Positions 3,635-24,405 of a stretch of 52,563 nucleotides of DNA are shown here, piece after piece. The stretch spans positions 1-52,563 of IMG/VR virus record IMGVR_UViG_3300030098_003463; one strand, 5' to 3'. The notes beneath the pieces were generated by a model. It made no database searches, was not told where the DNA came from, and worked only from the letters and a program-made list of their open reading frames with translations. Every line of letters starts with the position of its first letter. Positions within the stretch are counted from its first letter, which is position 1. A program made the position numbers and the translations under genes. The stretch is from a virus (lineage: Duplodnaviria > Caudoviricetes).

Positions 3635-4629
3635 TAAGTATTACTCGCATTAGGAATTTTTTCATGCGTACCGCGAGAAATATATCTGTTAGACACATTT
3701 TTAAATTGCCTTGAGCGCACTCCTTTGTGTTGCTTTCTTCCTAAATACGCTTCTTTTCTTAACAAATATTTTTGTCGCGCTGCTGCAGACGCAGACTCTT
3801 TGCCTTTTCCAGCCAACAAAATTGATTCTGGACCAAGCACTAATAAATCGTGATACTCTTCTGGTATTTCAGGCCAATCATCATCATTAATAAGCGGTGG
3901 TTTTTTAGCTAAACATCTTATAACATACGTCATTGCCGTATCGGGAATGTAATCAAACTCCCACCATTGATAAGAAGGCGACTTGCCATAGTAAGGTGGA
4001 ATTACGGCTAACGTATTGTCAGATACATCTTTAACTGTTACGTATCCAGAGAACTCAGCACTACTAGCATTAGAAAGAACAAGTCTTCGTATGCCTATAC
4101 CATTAGACCCTGCATCAAAACTGTTAGAAGACTCAACTTCAGTTGTTCCATTTATTTCAATTGACTCTCTGGTATCTACGCCAGAAGACATCCCGTTAAC
4201 AATAATATTAAAATTACCACCAGAAACATCAGAGGTGGACGATGAAACTACTGATATTTTTCCCGTTGTCACTGGTTGTTTTTGCACTCCATACTCACCA
4301 AACCAATACGCAGTAAGTGGAGTACCTGACTCTGAAAGGCCAGCGCGATTACGGTCAAATTCGTGTGGTCCCCTTAAAGGAATAGACCTATCGTTTGTGT
4401 CGTCTTCAATATTTAACAATTGAGATACATATATAGGCATTCCATACTTAGAAATACCAGAAACAGTGGTAAGAGTAAACTCTCGCCTTTCTAAATCACT
4501 GTCTCCTTCTGCGAGAATTTCTTTGTATGTAAAATTAATTTCGCGCTTTGCCATCATTTGAAAATCATCGCCATCTTCTTCAGAAGCGATTAAATTCAAA
4601 TGAGTATATAAGTCTTTAAATGTAGGCAT
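3634..4629 (-). CDS. Head-tail adaptor (gatekeeper)-like protein
   Basis: MPTFKDL...INFTYKEI N-terminus and 'DDDWPEIPEEYHDLLV' C-terminal motif are typical of phage adaptor proteins; synteny. Confidence 0.65.
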   Translation of the reverse strand: MPTFKDLYTHLNLIASEEDGDDFQMMAKREINFTYKEILAEGDSDLERREFTLTTVSGISKYGMPIYVSQLLNIEDDTNDRSIPLRGPHEFDRNRAGLSESGTPLTAYWFGEYGVQKQPVTTGKISVVSSSTSDVSGGNFNIIVNGMSSGVDTRESIEINGTTEVESSNSFDAGSNGIGIRRLVLSNASSAEFSGYVTVKDVSDNTLAVIPPYYGKSPSYQWWEFDYIPDTAMTYVIRCLAKKPPLINDDDWPEIPEEYHDLLVLGPESILLAGKGKESASAAARQKYLLRKEAYLGRKQHKGVRSRQFKNVSNRYISRGTHEKIPNASNT

Positions 4630-21059: not shown

Positions 21060-21870
21060 CAAGAATCGTCTGTCAAAAATCGGCCCAAAATCACTGTCAG
21101 CAAAGCTGTTTTGGGGTTTTGGGCCGATCAGAGGCTAAACAGTGCGCGTCATAACGTGTGCTGTTCTGTTCAAGATTCTTTGAACACGTCTGATGGATGG
21201 TATCCATTTGATTTGACACCGTAGACAGTAGATTGAACGTCGGACCCTGCTGTCCTACGGCTCTGTGTTTTGGGCCGATTCCAGCCAAGATCGGTCCCGT
21301 AGGCTCTCTGTTGGCTCTCTGTCGTGGCTTGTTGGCTGTCTCCCTGAATACCATTCAGTATGTGTGATAGATGGTATCTATGGCCTTGAGGATTGATCTG
21401 AGGTCGATGGATACCATCCATTACGCCTATATGTGCCAAATGGTATTTGGAGACTTGAGGTTTGGTCTTAGGGAATAACCTCTGGTTATTAACGCGCACA
21501 AAGCAGAGCTTCATGTGTGTGGTTGTCGATTGTCGATGATTCTGGCAGTGCAAAATTTGCAGCATTTTTTCCTATGGAAAGATTGGCCTAACGTATACGC
21601 AACAACGTCGCGCTCGCGTAGGATGCACTTTTTGCAGGTCGATTTCGGTGATTTGTGGTGTTTTGCTGCAAAATTTGCACTTTTGGGGTGGCCTTGCGCG
21701 GAAGCAAAGCTTCTTATGCGCGTAATCGTAGGCCTGTGGGACGCACGTGGCTCTTTGAGCCTATTCGCGCGTTGGAGCTTTGGCTAATGCGTAGGCGCGA
21801 AACATATAGTCCGTATGCGTCGTTGGGCTAAAAATTCGGCCAAAAAATATTGTGCATTATGCGAGCGGGG
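21060..21870. repeat. Repeat-rich intergenic region at the strand switch (putative terminus/packaging/control region)
   Basis: TTTTGGGCCGAT x3, a 15-bp inverted repeat (21193/21407), TGCAAAATTTGCA x2. Confidence 0.55.
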
Positions 21871-21883
21871 ATTTTTGGAGATC

Positions 21884-22525
21884 GGGGTTGGCACGGCGAT
21901 TGCAACGGTAAAAACTGGCGGCGATCCAGCCCATCGGGTCGTTGTCATCCTCCCATAGCGAGGTGCAGGGTTGTGCATAGGCATCACGATTCGGGGCCGA
22001 CAGAGCCTCCATCGTGGAAAGCTTGCCCAATCCCAAGACATAGCCAGCCGAGCCGAAGCTAAAGACTTCAGAGCAGCCGCTCGTATGAAGCAAAGCTGGC
22101 GGGTCATCCAAGGGAATACATGATTGGATGACTGTGAATAGGACAGGCCACAGTAGGTCGAAGCAGTGACGATTGTGACCAAGGCACACCACCCCGTAGC
22201 AGTTCATTTAGACTGCCGTGATCGGTGGAGCAACAGACTCCAGTAGTTAGGATGAGGTAAACGCCATTTAGGATTTCTTGGTTAACAGTCACGAAAGCCC
22301 TGCTGTCCAAAAGTTCAACGGGCCTGACCCCTATCAAATATGCCCATAGCCGAGCGGATAACCGCTTGACAGCGCGATCAATCAAGCGTTATAACGCGCA
22401 ATTGATCAAGAGGCTGTGACAGTCCAATAGTGGCTGTCGGGTAAACCATCACCGATCTGTTAAAGCCTTGCAATTTACCATTAAGCAGATCACCTTTCAT
22501 ACACAGTGACTCATTAGAAGTCACG
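21884..22525 (+). ncRNA. Candidate large structured ncRNA (~640 nt)
   Basis: More than 12 nested/local helices, several needing G-U pairs on the + strand; no credible ORF. Confidence 0.7.
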
Positions 22526-22545
22526 CCACACCAAAGGAGCCTATC

Positions 22546-23166
22546 ATGGCTAAGTTCAGCGTTCCTCAGATCAACATCAATCGCTCTGTTGCCCCTAACA
22601 AAAGCATAAAGGGCAAAGTCAACCCGAACAACCCCATGACCAAGGGGCAGGCTCGCCTGCTCTACTTCGCGGTCAAAGAACTGACAGGAGCGCGATTGGA
22701 TCTGTTCAGCGTCAACACTCCTGCTCTGGTCCACAGCGACATCACTGAGTTGTGCGGTATCCTCAACAAAGACAGCGGCGCGACTCAGGACGAACAGCAA
22801 CTCGCCATCGAGATCTTAGTGTCGGATCTGAGGGTGCCAGTCTTAGAATCGACGCCGCGCCCTGTATCCTCTGCTGGCCGCGCCGCCGCCGCTAAAGCCG
22901 CAAGCACGGCGGCACCAGAGGCAGGTAAGGTCGGCATCGGCACAGCGACAGAGAAAACAGAGCCGAAACAGCGAAAGAAGATGACGCCAGCCGAATCACT
23001 GGCTAAAGCTCGCGCCGCTAAGAAAGCCAAAGCTGATGCGGCTAAGGCGGCTCCAGTGGCTCCTGTGGCTCCTGAGACTTCTCCTGCGCCGTCTGAAAAG
23101 ACTGCGGATGAGAAGCTGGAACTGCTGGTCAGTGGCCTGTCGGCTCTGATCAAGGCAGTGGCGTAG
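22546..23166 (+). CDS. Basic early protein with Ala/Lys/Pro-rich (histone-like) C-terminal half
   Basis: 206 aa, AAGGAG RBS; lies between the large RNA and the hammerhead. Confidence 0.8.
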   Translation: MAKFSVPQININRSVAPNKSIKGKVNPNNPMTKGQARLLYFAVKELTGARLDLFSVNTPALVHSDITELCGILNKDSGATQDEQQLAIEILVSDLRVPVLESTPRPVSSAGRAAAAKAASTAAPEAGKVGIGTATEKTEPKQRKKMTPAESLAKARAAKKAKADAAKAAPVAPVAPETSPAPSEKTADEKLELLVSGLSALIKAVA

Positions 23167-23175
23167 CACCAGTAC

Positions 23176-23212
23176 CTACCGTGTATGGTCTTATCAAGAC
23201 TATACATGGTAG
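23176..23212 (+). other. 17-bp RNA hairpin immediately 5' of the ribozyme
   Basis: CTACCGTGTATGGTCTT-atc-AAGACTATACATGGTAG with G-U pairs; no U-tract. Confidence 0.8.
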
Positions 23213-23267
23213 GGGGGTCGGGCAGATCAGCACTGTCCCTGACGAAGACCATATGGTCGAAACTCCC
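23213..23267 (+). ncRNA. Type III hammerhead ribozyme
   Basis: GUC site 23217-19; stem I GGGCAG/CUGUCC; core CUGACGA(A) 23239-46; stem II GACC-auau-GGUC; GAAA 23259-62; stem III GGGGGU/ACUCCC. Confidence 0.88.
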
Positions 23268-23273
23268 GTCAGC

Positions 23274-23410
23274 TTGCTCCATAACCATGCCGTATAGACC
23301 ACCAAATCTATTCTTGGGGAGCAATGAATACACCACTGGTTCAGCAGTCTGACAGAGTCCCTTAAGGGATCTACGGTTCTTGTCCCATCAGACTGCTTGA
23401 CCAGTATTCA
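23274..23410 (+). ncRNA. Structured RNA element downstream of the hammerhead
   Basis: TTGCTCC/GGAGCAA; ACTGGTTCAGCAGTCTGA/TCAGACTGCTTGACCAGT; inner TCCCTTAAGGGA. Confidence 0.6.
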
Positions 23411-23432
23411 CACCACAGAAGAGGTATCCTCT

Positions 23433-23621
23433 ATGTACTACGCAATGGTAGTGCGAATTAATGCCGCTTACAGAGGGCAGGTGTGGGTTTATGTAGACTT
23501 ACACACCCACCGAATCGCCTTACCCTATGTCTTTAAGACACGGGATAAGGCAGTTGACACAATGGGATCGCCTGTTGTGTCATATGACCCCGACAATTAC
23601 TCTCACAAACTATCTCAATAG
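23433..23621 (+). CDS. Hypothetical early protein
   Basis: ATG after GAGG RBS. Confidence 0.5.
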   Translation: MYYAMVVRINAAYRGQVWVYVDLHTHRIALPYVFKTRDKAVDTMGSPVVSYDPDNYSHKLSQ

Positions 23622-23636
23622 GAGGAAAGTGAAAAC

Positions 23637-23792
23637 ATGATACCAACAGATCCCAACTTTTGGGACTGTGAATGTGACTGCGATTACATTCATCCCAAGA
23701 GCGAGGATAGCTGTCCAAGGTGCGACAGTTATCGGGAAGAAATGCCCGATAGCAGAATCAGTGAACTCAAAGAACACAAACTCATTCAATAG
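23637..23792 (+). CDS. Small Cys-rich (Zn-binding) protein, 51 aa
   Basis: MIPTDPNFWDCECDCDYIHPKSEDSCPRC..., AGGAGG RBS; not in the ORF track. Confidence 0.7.
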   Translation: MIPTDPNFWDCECDCDYIHPKSEDSCPRCDSYREEMPDSRISELKEHKLIQ

Positions 23793-23803
23793 GAGACATA
23801 ACC

Positions 23804-24004
23804 ATGCCAAAACTCAGCCACAGCCAACAGATAGCAATGGCCGTCATCATCGGCCAATCCAGTACCTCTAACGCCAAGGCAATCGCCAAAGAGGTAATAG
23901 AGGAAGCAGAGATTGCAGAAAAGCACAGCTTGAACACAGGATGTGAAACTCGCCCAGTCAGAATGATACAGAAAGCTGACGGCACAGTCTCTTTCACATT
24001 CTAA
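23804..24004 (+). CDS. Hypothetical early protein
   Basis: AGGAG RBS, operonic. Confidence 0.65.
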   Translation: MPKLSHSQQIAMAVIIGQSSTSNAKAIAKEVIEEAEIAEKHSLNTGCETRPVRMIQKADGTVSFTF

Positions 24005-24186
24005 TGCAACCCTATATCAGAGGAAAAGTAAGTTCTGGTAAAAGAAGCATGTTGGCTTACAAAAAGTCAGACAGAAAATGGTTCGGAAGCCGTTTCAAAT
24101 TGCGGCCAGACAGATACAAAAACAAAAGGAGTCACAACACCACAGAAGAGTGGATACCCCGACAGCAAAACCTCTCAATCACTTAG
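24004..24186 (+). CDS. Small basic hypothetical protein
   Basis: TAATG coupling with the upstream gene. Confidence 0.55.
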   Translation: MQPYIRGKVSSGKRSMLAYKKSDRKWFGSRFKLRPDRYKNKRSHNTTEEWIPRQQNLSIT

Positions 24187-24198
24187 AAAGGACAAATT

Positions 24199-24405
24199 AT
24201 GTTTAAATCTTTGTTTCAGATAGATCTAGTACAGACTGCCGTCAGAGACAGCAAGGGACGGTTTACGGGTGAGTATAAGATGGACTTTGTTTTCTTGTTA
24301 ACAAGAAACTGGAACATCGCTCCTAACAACAGAGGATTGTTCAAAGCACAGCTTGTCTTGTGTCCTCTGATATTGTGGTTAACTTATTATCTCGCAGGAG
24401 GTTAG
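24199..24405 (+). CDS. Small protein with RDSKGRF motif and C-terminal hydrophobic segment
   Basis: AAAGGA RBS. Confidence 0.6.
   Translation: MFKSLFQIDLVQTAVRDSKGRFTGEYKMDFVFLLTRNWNIAPNNRGLFKAQLVLCPLILWLTYYLAGG

What the first reader, a model, noticed from the sequence alone, without database searches (positions are those of the whole stretch)
23213..23267. Type III hammerhead ribozyme in a phage early operon
All core nucleotides are present (CUGAnGA, GAAA, GUC), with three intact stems and one extra A before stem II. Predicted cleavage is after C23219, 53 nt past the ORF stop. The 5' product would end just after a 17-bp hairpin and the 3' product would start with 5'-OH. Inference: protein-independent processing of early mRNA, analogous to RNase III sites in T7.
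Basis: partly seen in the sequence, partly recalled or inferred. Interest (0 to 1): 0.75.

Follow-up and report, generated by a model that had tools for sequence, protein, structure and literature searches.

The report
Phage type III hammerhead ribozyme
A small self-cutting RNA of the hammerhead kind sits between two genes of a marine phage and probably cuts the phage's long messenger RNA into separate pieces, a role already proposed for such ribozymes in other phages.

Summary
Window 23213-23267 (+) carries a complete type III hammerhead: the UC cleavage dinucleotide, CUGACGA, GAAA, three stems of 6/4/6 bp, and one extra A after A9. My descriptor found exactly this one site in the window and none in 1000 shuffles. 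Rfam's Hammerhead_3 matches it full length, but only at 23.6 bits against a cut-off of 48.5, and only when a 71-nt stretch is searched. All 10 related phage contigs that cover the spot keep the element. The core is invariant, and every stem change preserves pairing. Two relatives also carry Rfam-grade type II hammerheads nearby. Unrelated viral contigs hold well-formed type III hammerheads with the same extra nucleotide. A model built from eight of them scores the window site at 43.3 bits, against 10.6 for the next best hit. Best reading: co-transcriptional self-cleavage after C23219. This would leave gene 22546-23166 ending in a 17-bp hairpin and start the downstream RNA with a 5'-OH. Cleavage itself is untested. 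Hammerheads between phage genes are in print (PMC3088659), so this is a new member of a known kind. A conserved sequence complementary to the core (23267-23272) is specific to this family.

The parts
22546..23166 (+). Upstream ORF (206 aa), first gene of the rightward gene block. It matches no PHROG or Pfam family, and its stop is TAG at 23164-23166.
   Evidence: 36 homologous protein clusters
23176..23212 (+). 17-bp hairpin with a 3-nt loop (23193-23195) that abuts the hammerhead. It would be the 3'-terminal structure of the 5' cleavage product.
   Evidence: Relatives show one two-sided compensatory change (U-A to C-G) and several U-A to U.G changes, which fit an RNA helix on the + strand.
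23213..23219 (+). Stem III strand (23213-23218, ending in U16.1) and C17 (23219). The predicted cleavage is between 23219 and 23220.
23220..23238 (+). Stem I hairpin: 6 bp (23220-23225 with 23233-23238) and a 7-nt loop 1 (23226-23232).
   Evidence: pairs change G-C to A-U, G-C to G.U, G.U to A-U and G.U to G-C among 9 distinct variants, and none is broken.
23239..23245 (+). Core C3-A9 (CUGACGA), invariant in all 9 distinct variants.
23246..23246 (+). Extra nucleotide between A9 and G10.1. It is A in 3 variants and U in 6.
   Evidence: The same insertion occurs in unrelated viral-contig hammerheads.
23247..23258 (+). Stem II hairpin: 4 bp beginning with G10.1-C11.1, and a 4-nt loop 2 (23251-23254).
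   Evidence: A-U changes to G-C (both sides) and C-G to U.G, and none is broken.
23259..23267 (+). Core G12 A13 A14, then A15.1 and the other strand of stem III (23262-23267).
   Evidence: stem III is invariant apart from one G-C to G.U change
23267..23272 (+). Conserved 'anti-core' CGUCAG, perfectly complementary to C3-G8 (23239-23244). It can form a helix that competes with the active fold.
   Evidence: HH fold -20.6, alternative fold -18.5 kcal/mol. It is present in 9 of 9 family variants, including one with a 3-nt insertion before it, and in 0 of 22 other phage hammerheads.
23274..23323 (+). Predicted structured stretch that contains a small hairpin (23294-23311). The arms of that hairpin differ between the window and L001, yet pair in both.
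23336..23404 (+). Long hairpin module flanked by CACCAC-type repeats. It is one of a variable set of such modules found between the hammerhead and the next gene in relatives.
   Evidence: no Rfam family
23433..23621 (+). Next ORF (62 aa from ATG 23433), with GAGG 8 nt upstream. It would be the first cistron of the 3' cleavage product.
   Evidence: conserved in L001 and L005

Best explanation
Window 23213-23267 (+) encodes an active type III hammerhead ribozyme of a subclass that carries one extra nucleotide after A9.

Proposed mechanism. The rightward operon is transcribed through the stop codon of gene 22546-23166 and the 17-bp hairpin. The ribozyme is complete once position 23267 has been made. 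It then folds, helped by a loop 1-loop 2 contact, and cleaves itself between C23219 and G23220.

The 5' product is the mRNA of the 206-aa gene. It ends in the hairpin plus seven nucleotides and a 2',3'-cyclic phosphate. The 3' product starts with a 5'-OH at stem I and carries the downstream genes.

After cleavage the short stem III falls apart. The conserved CGUCAG (23267-23272) then pairs with the core, which locks the 3' product into two hairpins and prevents re-ligation. The net effect is to uncouple the stability and translation of the first gene from those of the rest of the operon, without any protein.

What is shown: the motif, its conservation, the pairing-preserving changes, and the class-wide layout. 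What is inferred: cleavage itself, the end chemistry (established hammerhead chemistry), refolding after cleavage, and the effect on RNA stability.
For: (1) The core is complete and there are three stems. The site is the only descriptor hit in the window, against 0 in 1000 shuffles.

(2) RF00008 aligns over its full length, 1-54 of 54, at 23.6 bits when 71 nt are searched.

(3) All 10 related contigs that extend past the homologous gene keep the element. The 5 contigs that lack it are cut off before it. Among 9 distinct variants, 135 of 135 pair cells are standard pairs. Two pairs changed on both sides and four on one side. The UC cleavage dinucleotide, CUGACGA and GAAAC never vary, while both loops and the extra nucleotide do.

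(4) G.U to A-U and G.U to G-C changes fit an RNA on the + strand.

(5) Loop 1 is a heptaloop with C at position 6 in 9 of 9 variants. Its first base and the last base of loop 2 are U/A in 4 variants and A/U in 5, never mixed. PMC2632901 (abstract and passages read) describes a heptaloop of form U-N-Y-N whose 5' U pairs with the 3' A of loop 2 in natural hammerheads.

(6) Relatives L008 and L009 carry type II hammerheads above Rfam's cut-off (48.8 and 50 bits; cut-off 37) on the same strand. In L009 the hit starts at the end of a listed + strand ORF.

(7) A pattern scan of viral contigs returned 90 stretches. In the 89 newly fetched loci my descriptor made 30 well-formed type III hammerhead calls, against about 1 expected by my own rough estimate (not computed in any call). 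These include 7 unrelated groups with the same extra nucleotide.

(8) A covariance model built from 8 of those sequences, none from this family, scores the window site at 43.3 bits (E 3.8e-9). The next best hit scores 10.6 bits. The 10 relatives score 48-61.6 bits.

(9) Of 22 other phage type III hammerheads, 9 have a perfect hairpin of at least 6 bp ending within 3 nt upstream (control 396 of 4400). In 15 of 22, an SD-like motif, a start codon and an ORF of at least 40 codons begin within 45 nt downstream (control 320 of 6600).

(10) No + strand terminator-like site lies in 21800-24200.
Against: The Rfam score is less than half the gathering cut-off, and standard scans miss the site.

Stem III, the one helix that separates the hammerhead fold from a plain two-hairpin fold, shows no two-sided covariation in the family.

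The minimum-energy fold of the whole intergenic region uses the competing CUGACG/CGUCAG helix instead of stem III. That helix is conserved in all variants, so N7=C and part of the core could be conserved for that reason.

The family is shallow: 9 variants with 86% mean column identity. The loop 1/loop 2 swap could therefore be a single event or a recombination.

One variant (L004 = L016) has an extra C between stem I and C3. Insertions at that place impaired cleavage under standard conditions in PMC3088659.

The model is not fully independent. Its sequences were fetched with a pattern derived from this site and filtered by a descriptor that demands pairing.

In the window the next start codon lies 213 nt after the cut, not within about 45 nt as in most other phage examples.

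No cleavage or RNA-end data exist.
Confidence: 0.75

Rival explanations
1. The hammerhead is active, but its main job is something other than separating two mRNAs. One option is that it defines the 5' end of the structured non-coding modules that follow it (23274-23404 in the window, with one to three such modules in relatives). Another is that it acts as a timed or regulated switch, in which the conserved anti-core competes with the active fold so that only part of the transcripts are cut.
For: Variable structured modules lie between the ribozyme and the next ORF in most relatives. The window's whole intergenic region folds far better than shuffles (z -5.7). The anti-core is conserved in 9 of 9 variants and absent from 22 of 22 other phage hammerheads. 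The two folds are nearly isoenergetic.
Against: In L013 the ORF follows the ribozyme directly, with no module, so the modules are dispensable. No known RNA family matches them. No ligand- or protein-binding element is evident.
Confidence: 0.15
2. The element is a non-catalytic structured RNA: two hairpins plus the CUGACG/CGUCAG helix. It would serve, for example, as a nuclease site, a protein-binding site or a stabiliser, and its likeness to a hammerhead would be coincidence.
For: The MFE of the full region prefers this fold. Covariation supports only the two hairpins that both folds share. The Rfam score is below the cut-off.
Against: This fold leaves the invariant GAAAC and the UC cleavage dinucleotide with its G-run unpaired and unexplained. 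The full hammerhead descriptor had 0 chance hits in 1000 shuffles. The loop 1/loop 2 pattern fits the hammerhead tertiary contact. The same architecture recurs in unrelated phages without the anti-core. Relatives use bona fide hammerheads nearby.
Confidence: 0.06
3. The element is a decaying relic of a hammerhead that no longer cleaves at a useful rate, because of the extra A, the G.U pair in stem III and the non-canonical A/U loop contact.
For: The window copy scores lowest of the family against the phage model (43.3 bits against 48-61.6) and low against Rfam.
Against: The core is intact in every variant, and all stem changes keep pairing. The intergenic stretch is more conserved than the flanking coding sequence between the window and L001. 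The extra nucleotide is shared by several unrelated, well-formed phage hammerheads.
Confidence: 0.04

Closest known systems
Hammerhead ribozyme, type III (Rfam RF00008, clan CL00010)
   Same: Same core nucleotides, the same three-way junction open at stem III, a GUC cleavage triplet, G10.1-C11.1, and a heptaloop on stem I. The alignment to the model is full length.
   Different: There is one extra nucleotide between A9 and G10.1. The score of 23.6 bits is below the 48.5-bit cut-off. The element is encoded in a DNA phage operon, not in a viroid, satellite or plant repeat.
Hammerheads that flank genes in prophages and phages, including HHphage of haloviruses HF1/HF2 (Perreault et al. 2011, PMC3088659; passages and section 8 read)
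   Same: Intergenic position, the same orientation as the flanking genes, and a location in an early-type polycistronic unit. That paper proposes processing of long phage transcripts into operon- or gene-length mRNAs. It also reports insertions next to C3, as seen here in L004/L016.
   Different: That paper's emphasis is on type II forms and pseudoknot contacts. The passages I read mention neither the insertion after A9, nor the abutting upstream hairpin, nor an anti-core. I could not see its supplementary figures and datasets, which may list such variants.
CChMVd (+) hammerhead with an extra nucleotide in the catalytic core (De la Pena & Flores 2001, J Biol Chem)
   Same: A natural, functional type III hammerhead with one extra core nucleotide. 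CChMVd loop 1 is also a heptaloop (PMC2632901).
   Different: It is a viroid ribozyme working in rolling-circle replication. I saw only the title of the 2001 paper, in reference lists, and the paper is not held. That its extra A lies between A9 and G10.1 is my recollection, not a result.
RNase III processing sites of phage T7 early mRNA
   Same: The outcome is the same: a polycistronic early transcript cut between genes, leaving a 3' hairpin on the upstream piece (established knowledge, recalled).
   Different: Cutting there is done by a host protein on a double-stranded site and leaves 5'-phosphate and 3'-OH ends. Here the RNA cuts itself and would leave 5'-OH and 2',3'-cyclic phosphate ends.

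Membership tests
Hammerhead ribozyme | Conserved core: C3 U4 G5 A6 N7 G8 A9, G12 A13 A14, A15.1-U16.1, and H17 not G | tested here: met
   All are present at 23239-23245, 23259-23262 and 23218-23219, and invariant in 9 of 9 variants. There is one inserted nucleotide (23246) between A9 and G10.1.
Hammerhead ribozyme | Stems I and II are real helices, supported by covariation, with G10.1-C11.1 closing stem II | tested here: met
   100% of cells are paired. There are two-sided changes at one pair of stem I and one pair of stem II, and one-sided G.U changes at three more. When the 3' partners are slid by 1-3 columns as a control, only 33-59% of cells pair.
Hammerhead ribozyme | Stem III closes the three-way junction | tested here: inconclusive
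   Stem III has 5-6 bp in every variant but is invariant apart from one G-C to G.U change. A competing conserved helix exists. Stem III does covary among the unrelated phage examples, but those were selected for pairing.
Hammerhead ribozyme, type III | Stems I and II are capped by loops, and the strand ends lie in stem III | tested here: met
Rfam RF00008 Hammerhead_3 | Score at or above the curated gathering cut-off (48.5 bits) | tested here: not met
   23.6 bits on a 71-nt search, and no match in wider searches.
Hammerhead ribozyme | Loop 1-loop 2 tertiary contact needed for activity at low Mg2+ (5' base of loop 1 with 3' base of loop 2, and a pyrimidine near the 3' side of loop 1; PMC2632901) | tested here: inconclusive
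   Position 6 of loop 1 is C in 9 of 9 variants. The loop 1 first base / loop 2 last base are U/A in 4 variants and A/U in 5, never mismatched. The window itself has the swapped A/U form, whose geometry is untested, and the swap may be a single event.
Phage type III hammerheads with an extra nucleotide after A9 (a set defined here) | Match to a covariance model built from 8 unrelated viral-contig examples | tested here: met
   43.3 bits, E 3.8e-9, positions 1-53 of 53 with no indel, and the next hit at 10.6 bits. Caveat: the examples were fetched with a pattern taken from this site.
Hammerhead ribozyme | Site-specific self-cleavage 3' of position 17, giving 2',3'-cyclic phosphate and 5'-OH ends | not testable with these tools
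   No RNA run was listed. A bench assay is needed.

The most novel reading that the evidence does not exclude
This phage family has added a conserved 'anti-core' (CGUCAG, 23267-23272) directly behind its hammerhead. The ribozyme would then have only a short co-transcriptional window in which to cut. Afterwards, or instead, the RNA refolds into a stable two-hairpin 5' end that cannot re-ligate. More broadly, the layout 'stable hairpin, then type III hammerhead, then ribosome-binding site' would be a widespread natural phage cassette for insulating cistrons, and the form with an extra nucleotide after A9 would be a distinct, under-annotated subclass that Rfam thresholds miss.
Probability: 0.3. 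Interest if true: 0.55.

Novelty: new member of a known kind. Interest (0 to 1): 0.35.

Why it matters
Hammerheads between phage genes have been known since 2011, but reviews still call their biological role an open question (PMC6155905, PMC6765202). This site adds a clean, conserved example whose layout makes the mRNA-processing idea directly testable: a protective hairpin upstream, the cut site, and a conserved anti-core downstream. It also shows that standard Rfam thresholds miss a recurrent phage subclass that carries an extra core nucleotide, so phage annotations probably under-count these ribozymes.

Tried and rejected
- RNA-seq evidence for the cut: no RNA holder was listed by the look-up of sequencing runs.
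- Annotated phage records: no match for 22500-24000 at 'distant' sensitivity.
- Prokaryote genome contigs: no relative of the upstream protein, so there is no prophage or host context.
- tRNA association: no tRNA in the window.
- Other hammerhead types in the window: none at Rfam gathering score, and no RF02276 match at E<=10.
- Intrinsic terminator or sigma-70 promoter near the site: none on the + strand. The 17-bp hairpin is followed by a run of G, not U.
- Known RNA family for the downstream modules: none.
- First descriptor script: it had a loop-length bug and missed even the true site. It was fixed.
- Alignment A4 of all 22 other phage hammerheads mixed forms with and without the insertion, and A5 misaligned L071. 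I therefore built the model from 8 of the 22, dropping the 13 without the insertion and L071.
- Literature: a phrase search for the A9/G10.1 insertion found nothing relevant, and the 2001 JBC paper is not held.
- Reverse-strand reading: rejected, because the G.U pairs in stem I, stem III and the upstream hairpin would become C-A mismatches.

Full report
**What is in the sequence.** The window is a 52,563-base IMG/VR virus record estimated 99% complete. On the + strand, positions 23213-23267 hold every element of a type III hammerhead, as read:
- a stem III strand at 23213-23218 ending in U16.1
- C17 at 23219
- a stem I hairpin at 23220-23238 (6 bp, 7-nt loop)
- the core CUGACGA at 23239-23245
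- one extra A at 23246
- a stem II hairpin at 23247-23258 (4 bp beginning G-C, 4-nt loop)
- GAAA at 23259-23262
- the second stem III strand up to 23267

The upstream ORF 22546-23166 stops 53 nt before C23219. A 17-bp hairpin at 23176-23212 abuts the motif.

**Is it more than chance?** Rfam gave mixed results. There was no match at gathering score on the window. No hammerhead appeared at E<=10 on 301 nt or through the genome search with RF00008. When only 71 nt were searched, so that the speed filters relaxed, RF00008 aligned over all 54 model positions at 23.6 bits (E 0.0016). That is well under the 48.5-bit cut-off, and the extra A was treated as an insertion.

A descriptor of my own required the core, 0-1 inserted nt, G10.1-C11.1 and stems of at least 4/3/4 bp. 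It found this one site on both strands of the window and none in 1000 dinucleotide shuffles (the first version was faulty). For 23213-23272 the hammerhead fold is the minimum-energy fold, at -20.6 kcal/mol. For the 55-nt motif alone the energy z-score is only -1.2.

**Relatives.** The 206-aa upstream protein has no PHROG or Pfam family but has 36 homologous clusters at 61-100% identity. Searches of viral and metagenome contigs with the protein, or with its alignment, gave 15 distinct related contigs. None was found in prokaryote genomes or in annotated phage records.

Ten contigs extend beyond the gene, and all ten carry the motif at the same place. The other five end before it. With the window this makes 9 distinct sequences (L004 = L016 and L008 = L012 in this stretch).

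Across those 9 sequences:
- The UC cleavage dinucleotide, CUGACGA and GAAAC never change.
- Both loops and the extra nucleotide (A in 3, U in 6) do change.
- All 135 pair cells remain standard pairs.
- Stem I shows G-C to A-U at pair 1.1-2.1, G-C to G.U, and G.U to A-U or G-C.
- Stem II shows A-U to G-C and C-G to U.G.
- Stem III is invariant apart from one G-C to G.U change.
- Between the window and L001 the intergenic stretch is better conserved than the flanking coding sequence.

The G.U pairs place the RNA on the + strand.

**Hammerhead-specific support beyond the hairpins.** Loop 1 is a heptaloop with C at position 6 in all 9 variants. Its first base and the last base of loop 2 are U/A in four variants and A/U in five, never mixed. 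Dufour et al. (PMC2632901; abstract and passages read) describe exactly such a contact in natural hammerheads. In their account, a heptaloop of form U-N-Y-N has its 5' U pairing with the 3' A of loop 2, and 17 of 27 natural hammerheads fit the loop 1 motif. Four family variants fit this literally. The window has the swapped form.

The four combinations of upstream-hairpin type and loop-pair state all occur. The swap therefore either happened more than once or moved by recombination, and I treat it as suggestive only.

**This phage group uses hammerheads.** Rfam at gathering score found type II hammerheads in two relatives: L009 1302-1365 (50 bits) and L008 1596-1659 (48.8 bits), against a cut-off of 37. 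Both lie on the same strand, 600-800 nt downstream of the type III element. In L009 the hit starts at the end of a listed + strand ORF (1100-1303). The window has none.

**The architecture recurs in unrelated phages.** A pattern that fixed only four bases at the cleavage site, the core, G10.1 and CGAAAC, with the window's spacing, returned 90 stretches of viral contigs. In the 89 newly fetched loci my descriptor called 30 well-formed type III hammerheads. Random pattern matches should yield about one, by my own rough estimate, which I did not compute in any call. The calls include seven sequence groups, unrelated to this family, that carry the same single extra nucleotide after A9 (mostly U).

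I built a covariance model from eight of these. I dropped the 13 examples without the insertion, and L071, which MAFFT misaligned. The model scored the window site at 43.3 bits (E 3.8e-9, positions 1-53 of 53, no indel), against 10.6 bits for the next hit. It scored the ten relatives at 48-61.6 bits.

This test is only partly independent. The eight sequences were fetched with a pattern taken from the site and filtered for pairing, so the strong covariation is by construction. What is independent is that this exact layout exists as a proper hammerhead in several unrelated phages.

**How it most likely works.** Among the 22 other phage type III hammerheads:
- 9 have a perfect hairpin of at least 6 bp ending within 3 nt of the ribozyme's 5' edge. 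The control at random positions in the same loci was 396 of 4400.
- 15 have an SD-like motif, a start codon and an ORF of at least 40 codons beginning within 45 nt downstream. The control was 320 of 6600.

The window shows the first feature in strong form, with its 17-bp hairpin. That hairpin covaries in relatives: one U-A to C-G change and several U-A to U.G changes. Relative L013 shows the second feature directly. No terminator-like site lies on the + strand nearby.

I therefore read the element as a self-cleaving boundary between cistrons. The upstream mRNA would end in a protective hairpin with a cyclic phosphate. The downstream RNA would begin with a 5'-OH. These end chemistries are established hammerhead chemistry; their effect on stability here is inference.

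Perreault et al. (PMC3088659; passages and section 8 read) proposed the same role for hammerheads flanking prophage genes. They also reported that the mapped 5' end of an early halovirus transcript lies within three nucleotides of a hammerhead cleavage site. Weinberg et al. (PMC6765202; passages read) and de la Pena et al. (PMC6155905; passages read) still describe the role of these ribozymes as unsettled.

**A family-specific twist.** Directly after stem III lies CGUCAG (23267-23272), the exact complement of C3-G8. Four observations bear on it:
- It is present in all 9 variants, although the sequence just downstream diverges.
- It survives a 3-nt insertion in L005.
- It is absent from all 22 other phage hammerheads.
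- The alternative helix is nearly as stable as the active fold (-18.5 against -20.6 kcal/mol), and the MFE of the whole intergenic region chooses it.

Because it is transcribed last, the simplest reading is that the ribozyme cuts first and the 3' product then refolds, which blocks re-ligation. A regulatory competition is also possible. This same feature is the main argument for the non-catalytic rival, which I rate low. That rival leaves the invariant GAAAC and the UC cleavage dinucleotide unexplained.

**Points against, stated plainly.**
- The Rfam score is sub-threshold.
- Stem III shows no two-sided covariation within the family.
- The alignment is shallow.
- One variant (L004 = L016, from two different records) has an extra C between stem I and C3. 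Insertions at that position impaired cleavage under standard conditions in PMC3088659.
- In the window, 213 nt of structured RNA separate the cut from the next start codon.
- No experimental or transcriptome evidence could be obtained.
- 'Early' rests only on gene content: small ORFs, ParB-like, PDDEXK and DUF1064 proteins on the + strand, transcribed divergently from the terminase-bearing arm.

**Verdict.** This is a new member of a known kind: phage-encoded hammerheads between genes. It belongs to an extra-nucleotide subclass that standard thresholds miss, and it carries a conserved anti-core that deserves a bench test. The supplementary figures and datasets of PMC3088659, which I could not see, may already list hammerheads of this subclass.

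Noticed in passing
L009 1302-1365 (+) and L008 1596-1659 (+): Type II hammerheads above Rfam's cut-off (50 and 48.8 bits; cut-off 37) in two relatives of this phage. They lie a few hundred nt downstream of the type III element on the same strand. The window has no counterpart.
   Followed up: partly
window 23336-23404 (flanking repeats at about 23331-23336 and 23409-23418); L001 3790-3975; L004 2880-3010; L008 850-1100 (two copies); L007 and L010 (a different, longer module): Between the hammerhead and the next ORF, relatives carry zero to three long-stem structured modules of about 70-170 nt. The modules are bounded by CACCAC-type direct repeats and differ in number and type between close relatives, as inserted elements would. 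No Rfam family matches them.
   Followed up: partly
L024, L041, L042, L052, L059, L071, L076, L108 and duplicates (coordinates): Seven unrelated groups of viral-contig type III hammerheads share one extra nucleotide after A9, a 4-bp stem II and a 4-nt loop ending in A. In the 8 of them aligned, loop 1 begins with U. They look like a recurrent subclass.
   Followed up: partly
22 phage type III hammerheads in loci L022-L108: A stable hairpin ends within 3 nt upstream in 9 of 22 (control 9%). An SD-like motif, a start codon and an ORF of at least 40 codons lie within 45 nt downstream in 15 of 22 (control 4.8%). This is a hairpin-ribozyme-RBS cassette. Some of the 22 are related to each other.
   Followed up: partly
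L004 about 2840 and L016 about 2194: Two contigs from different records share an extra C between stem I and C3 of the hammerhead. That position matches the 2a/2b insertions reported for saltern and halovirus hammerheads in PMC3088659.
   Followed up: no
L108 5883-5934 and 6207-6258 (+): Two near-identical type III hammerheads lie 324 nt apart on one viral contig, bracketing a short stretch with a 69-codon ORF. Their stem I sequences differ by compensatory changes.
   Followed up: no
window 22546-23166 (+): The 206-aa protein upstream of the ribozyme has a strongly conserved N-terminal half and a variable C-terminal half rich in Ala, Lys and Pro. It has no Pfam or PHROG family. The 36 homologous clusters come almost all from metagenomes.
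   Followed up: partly
window 23294-23311 (+) against L001 about 3745-3762: A small hairpin whose two arms differ between the window and L001 but pair in both (5 and 6 bp). It sits inside a larger predicted stem at 23274-23323.
   Followed up: no
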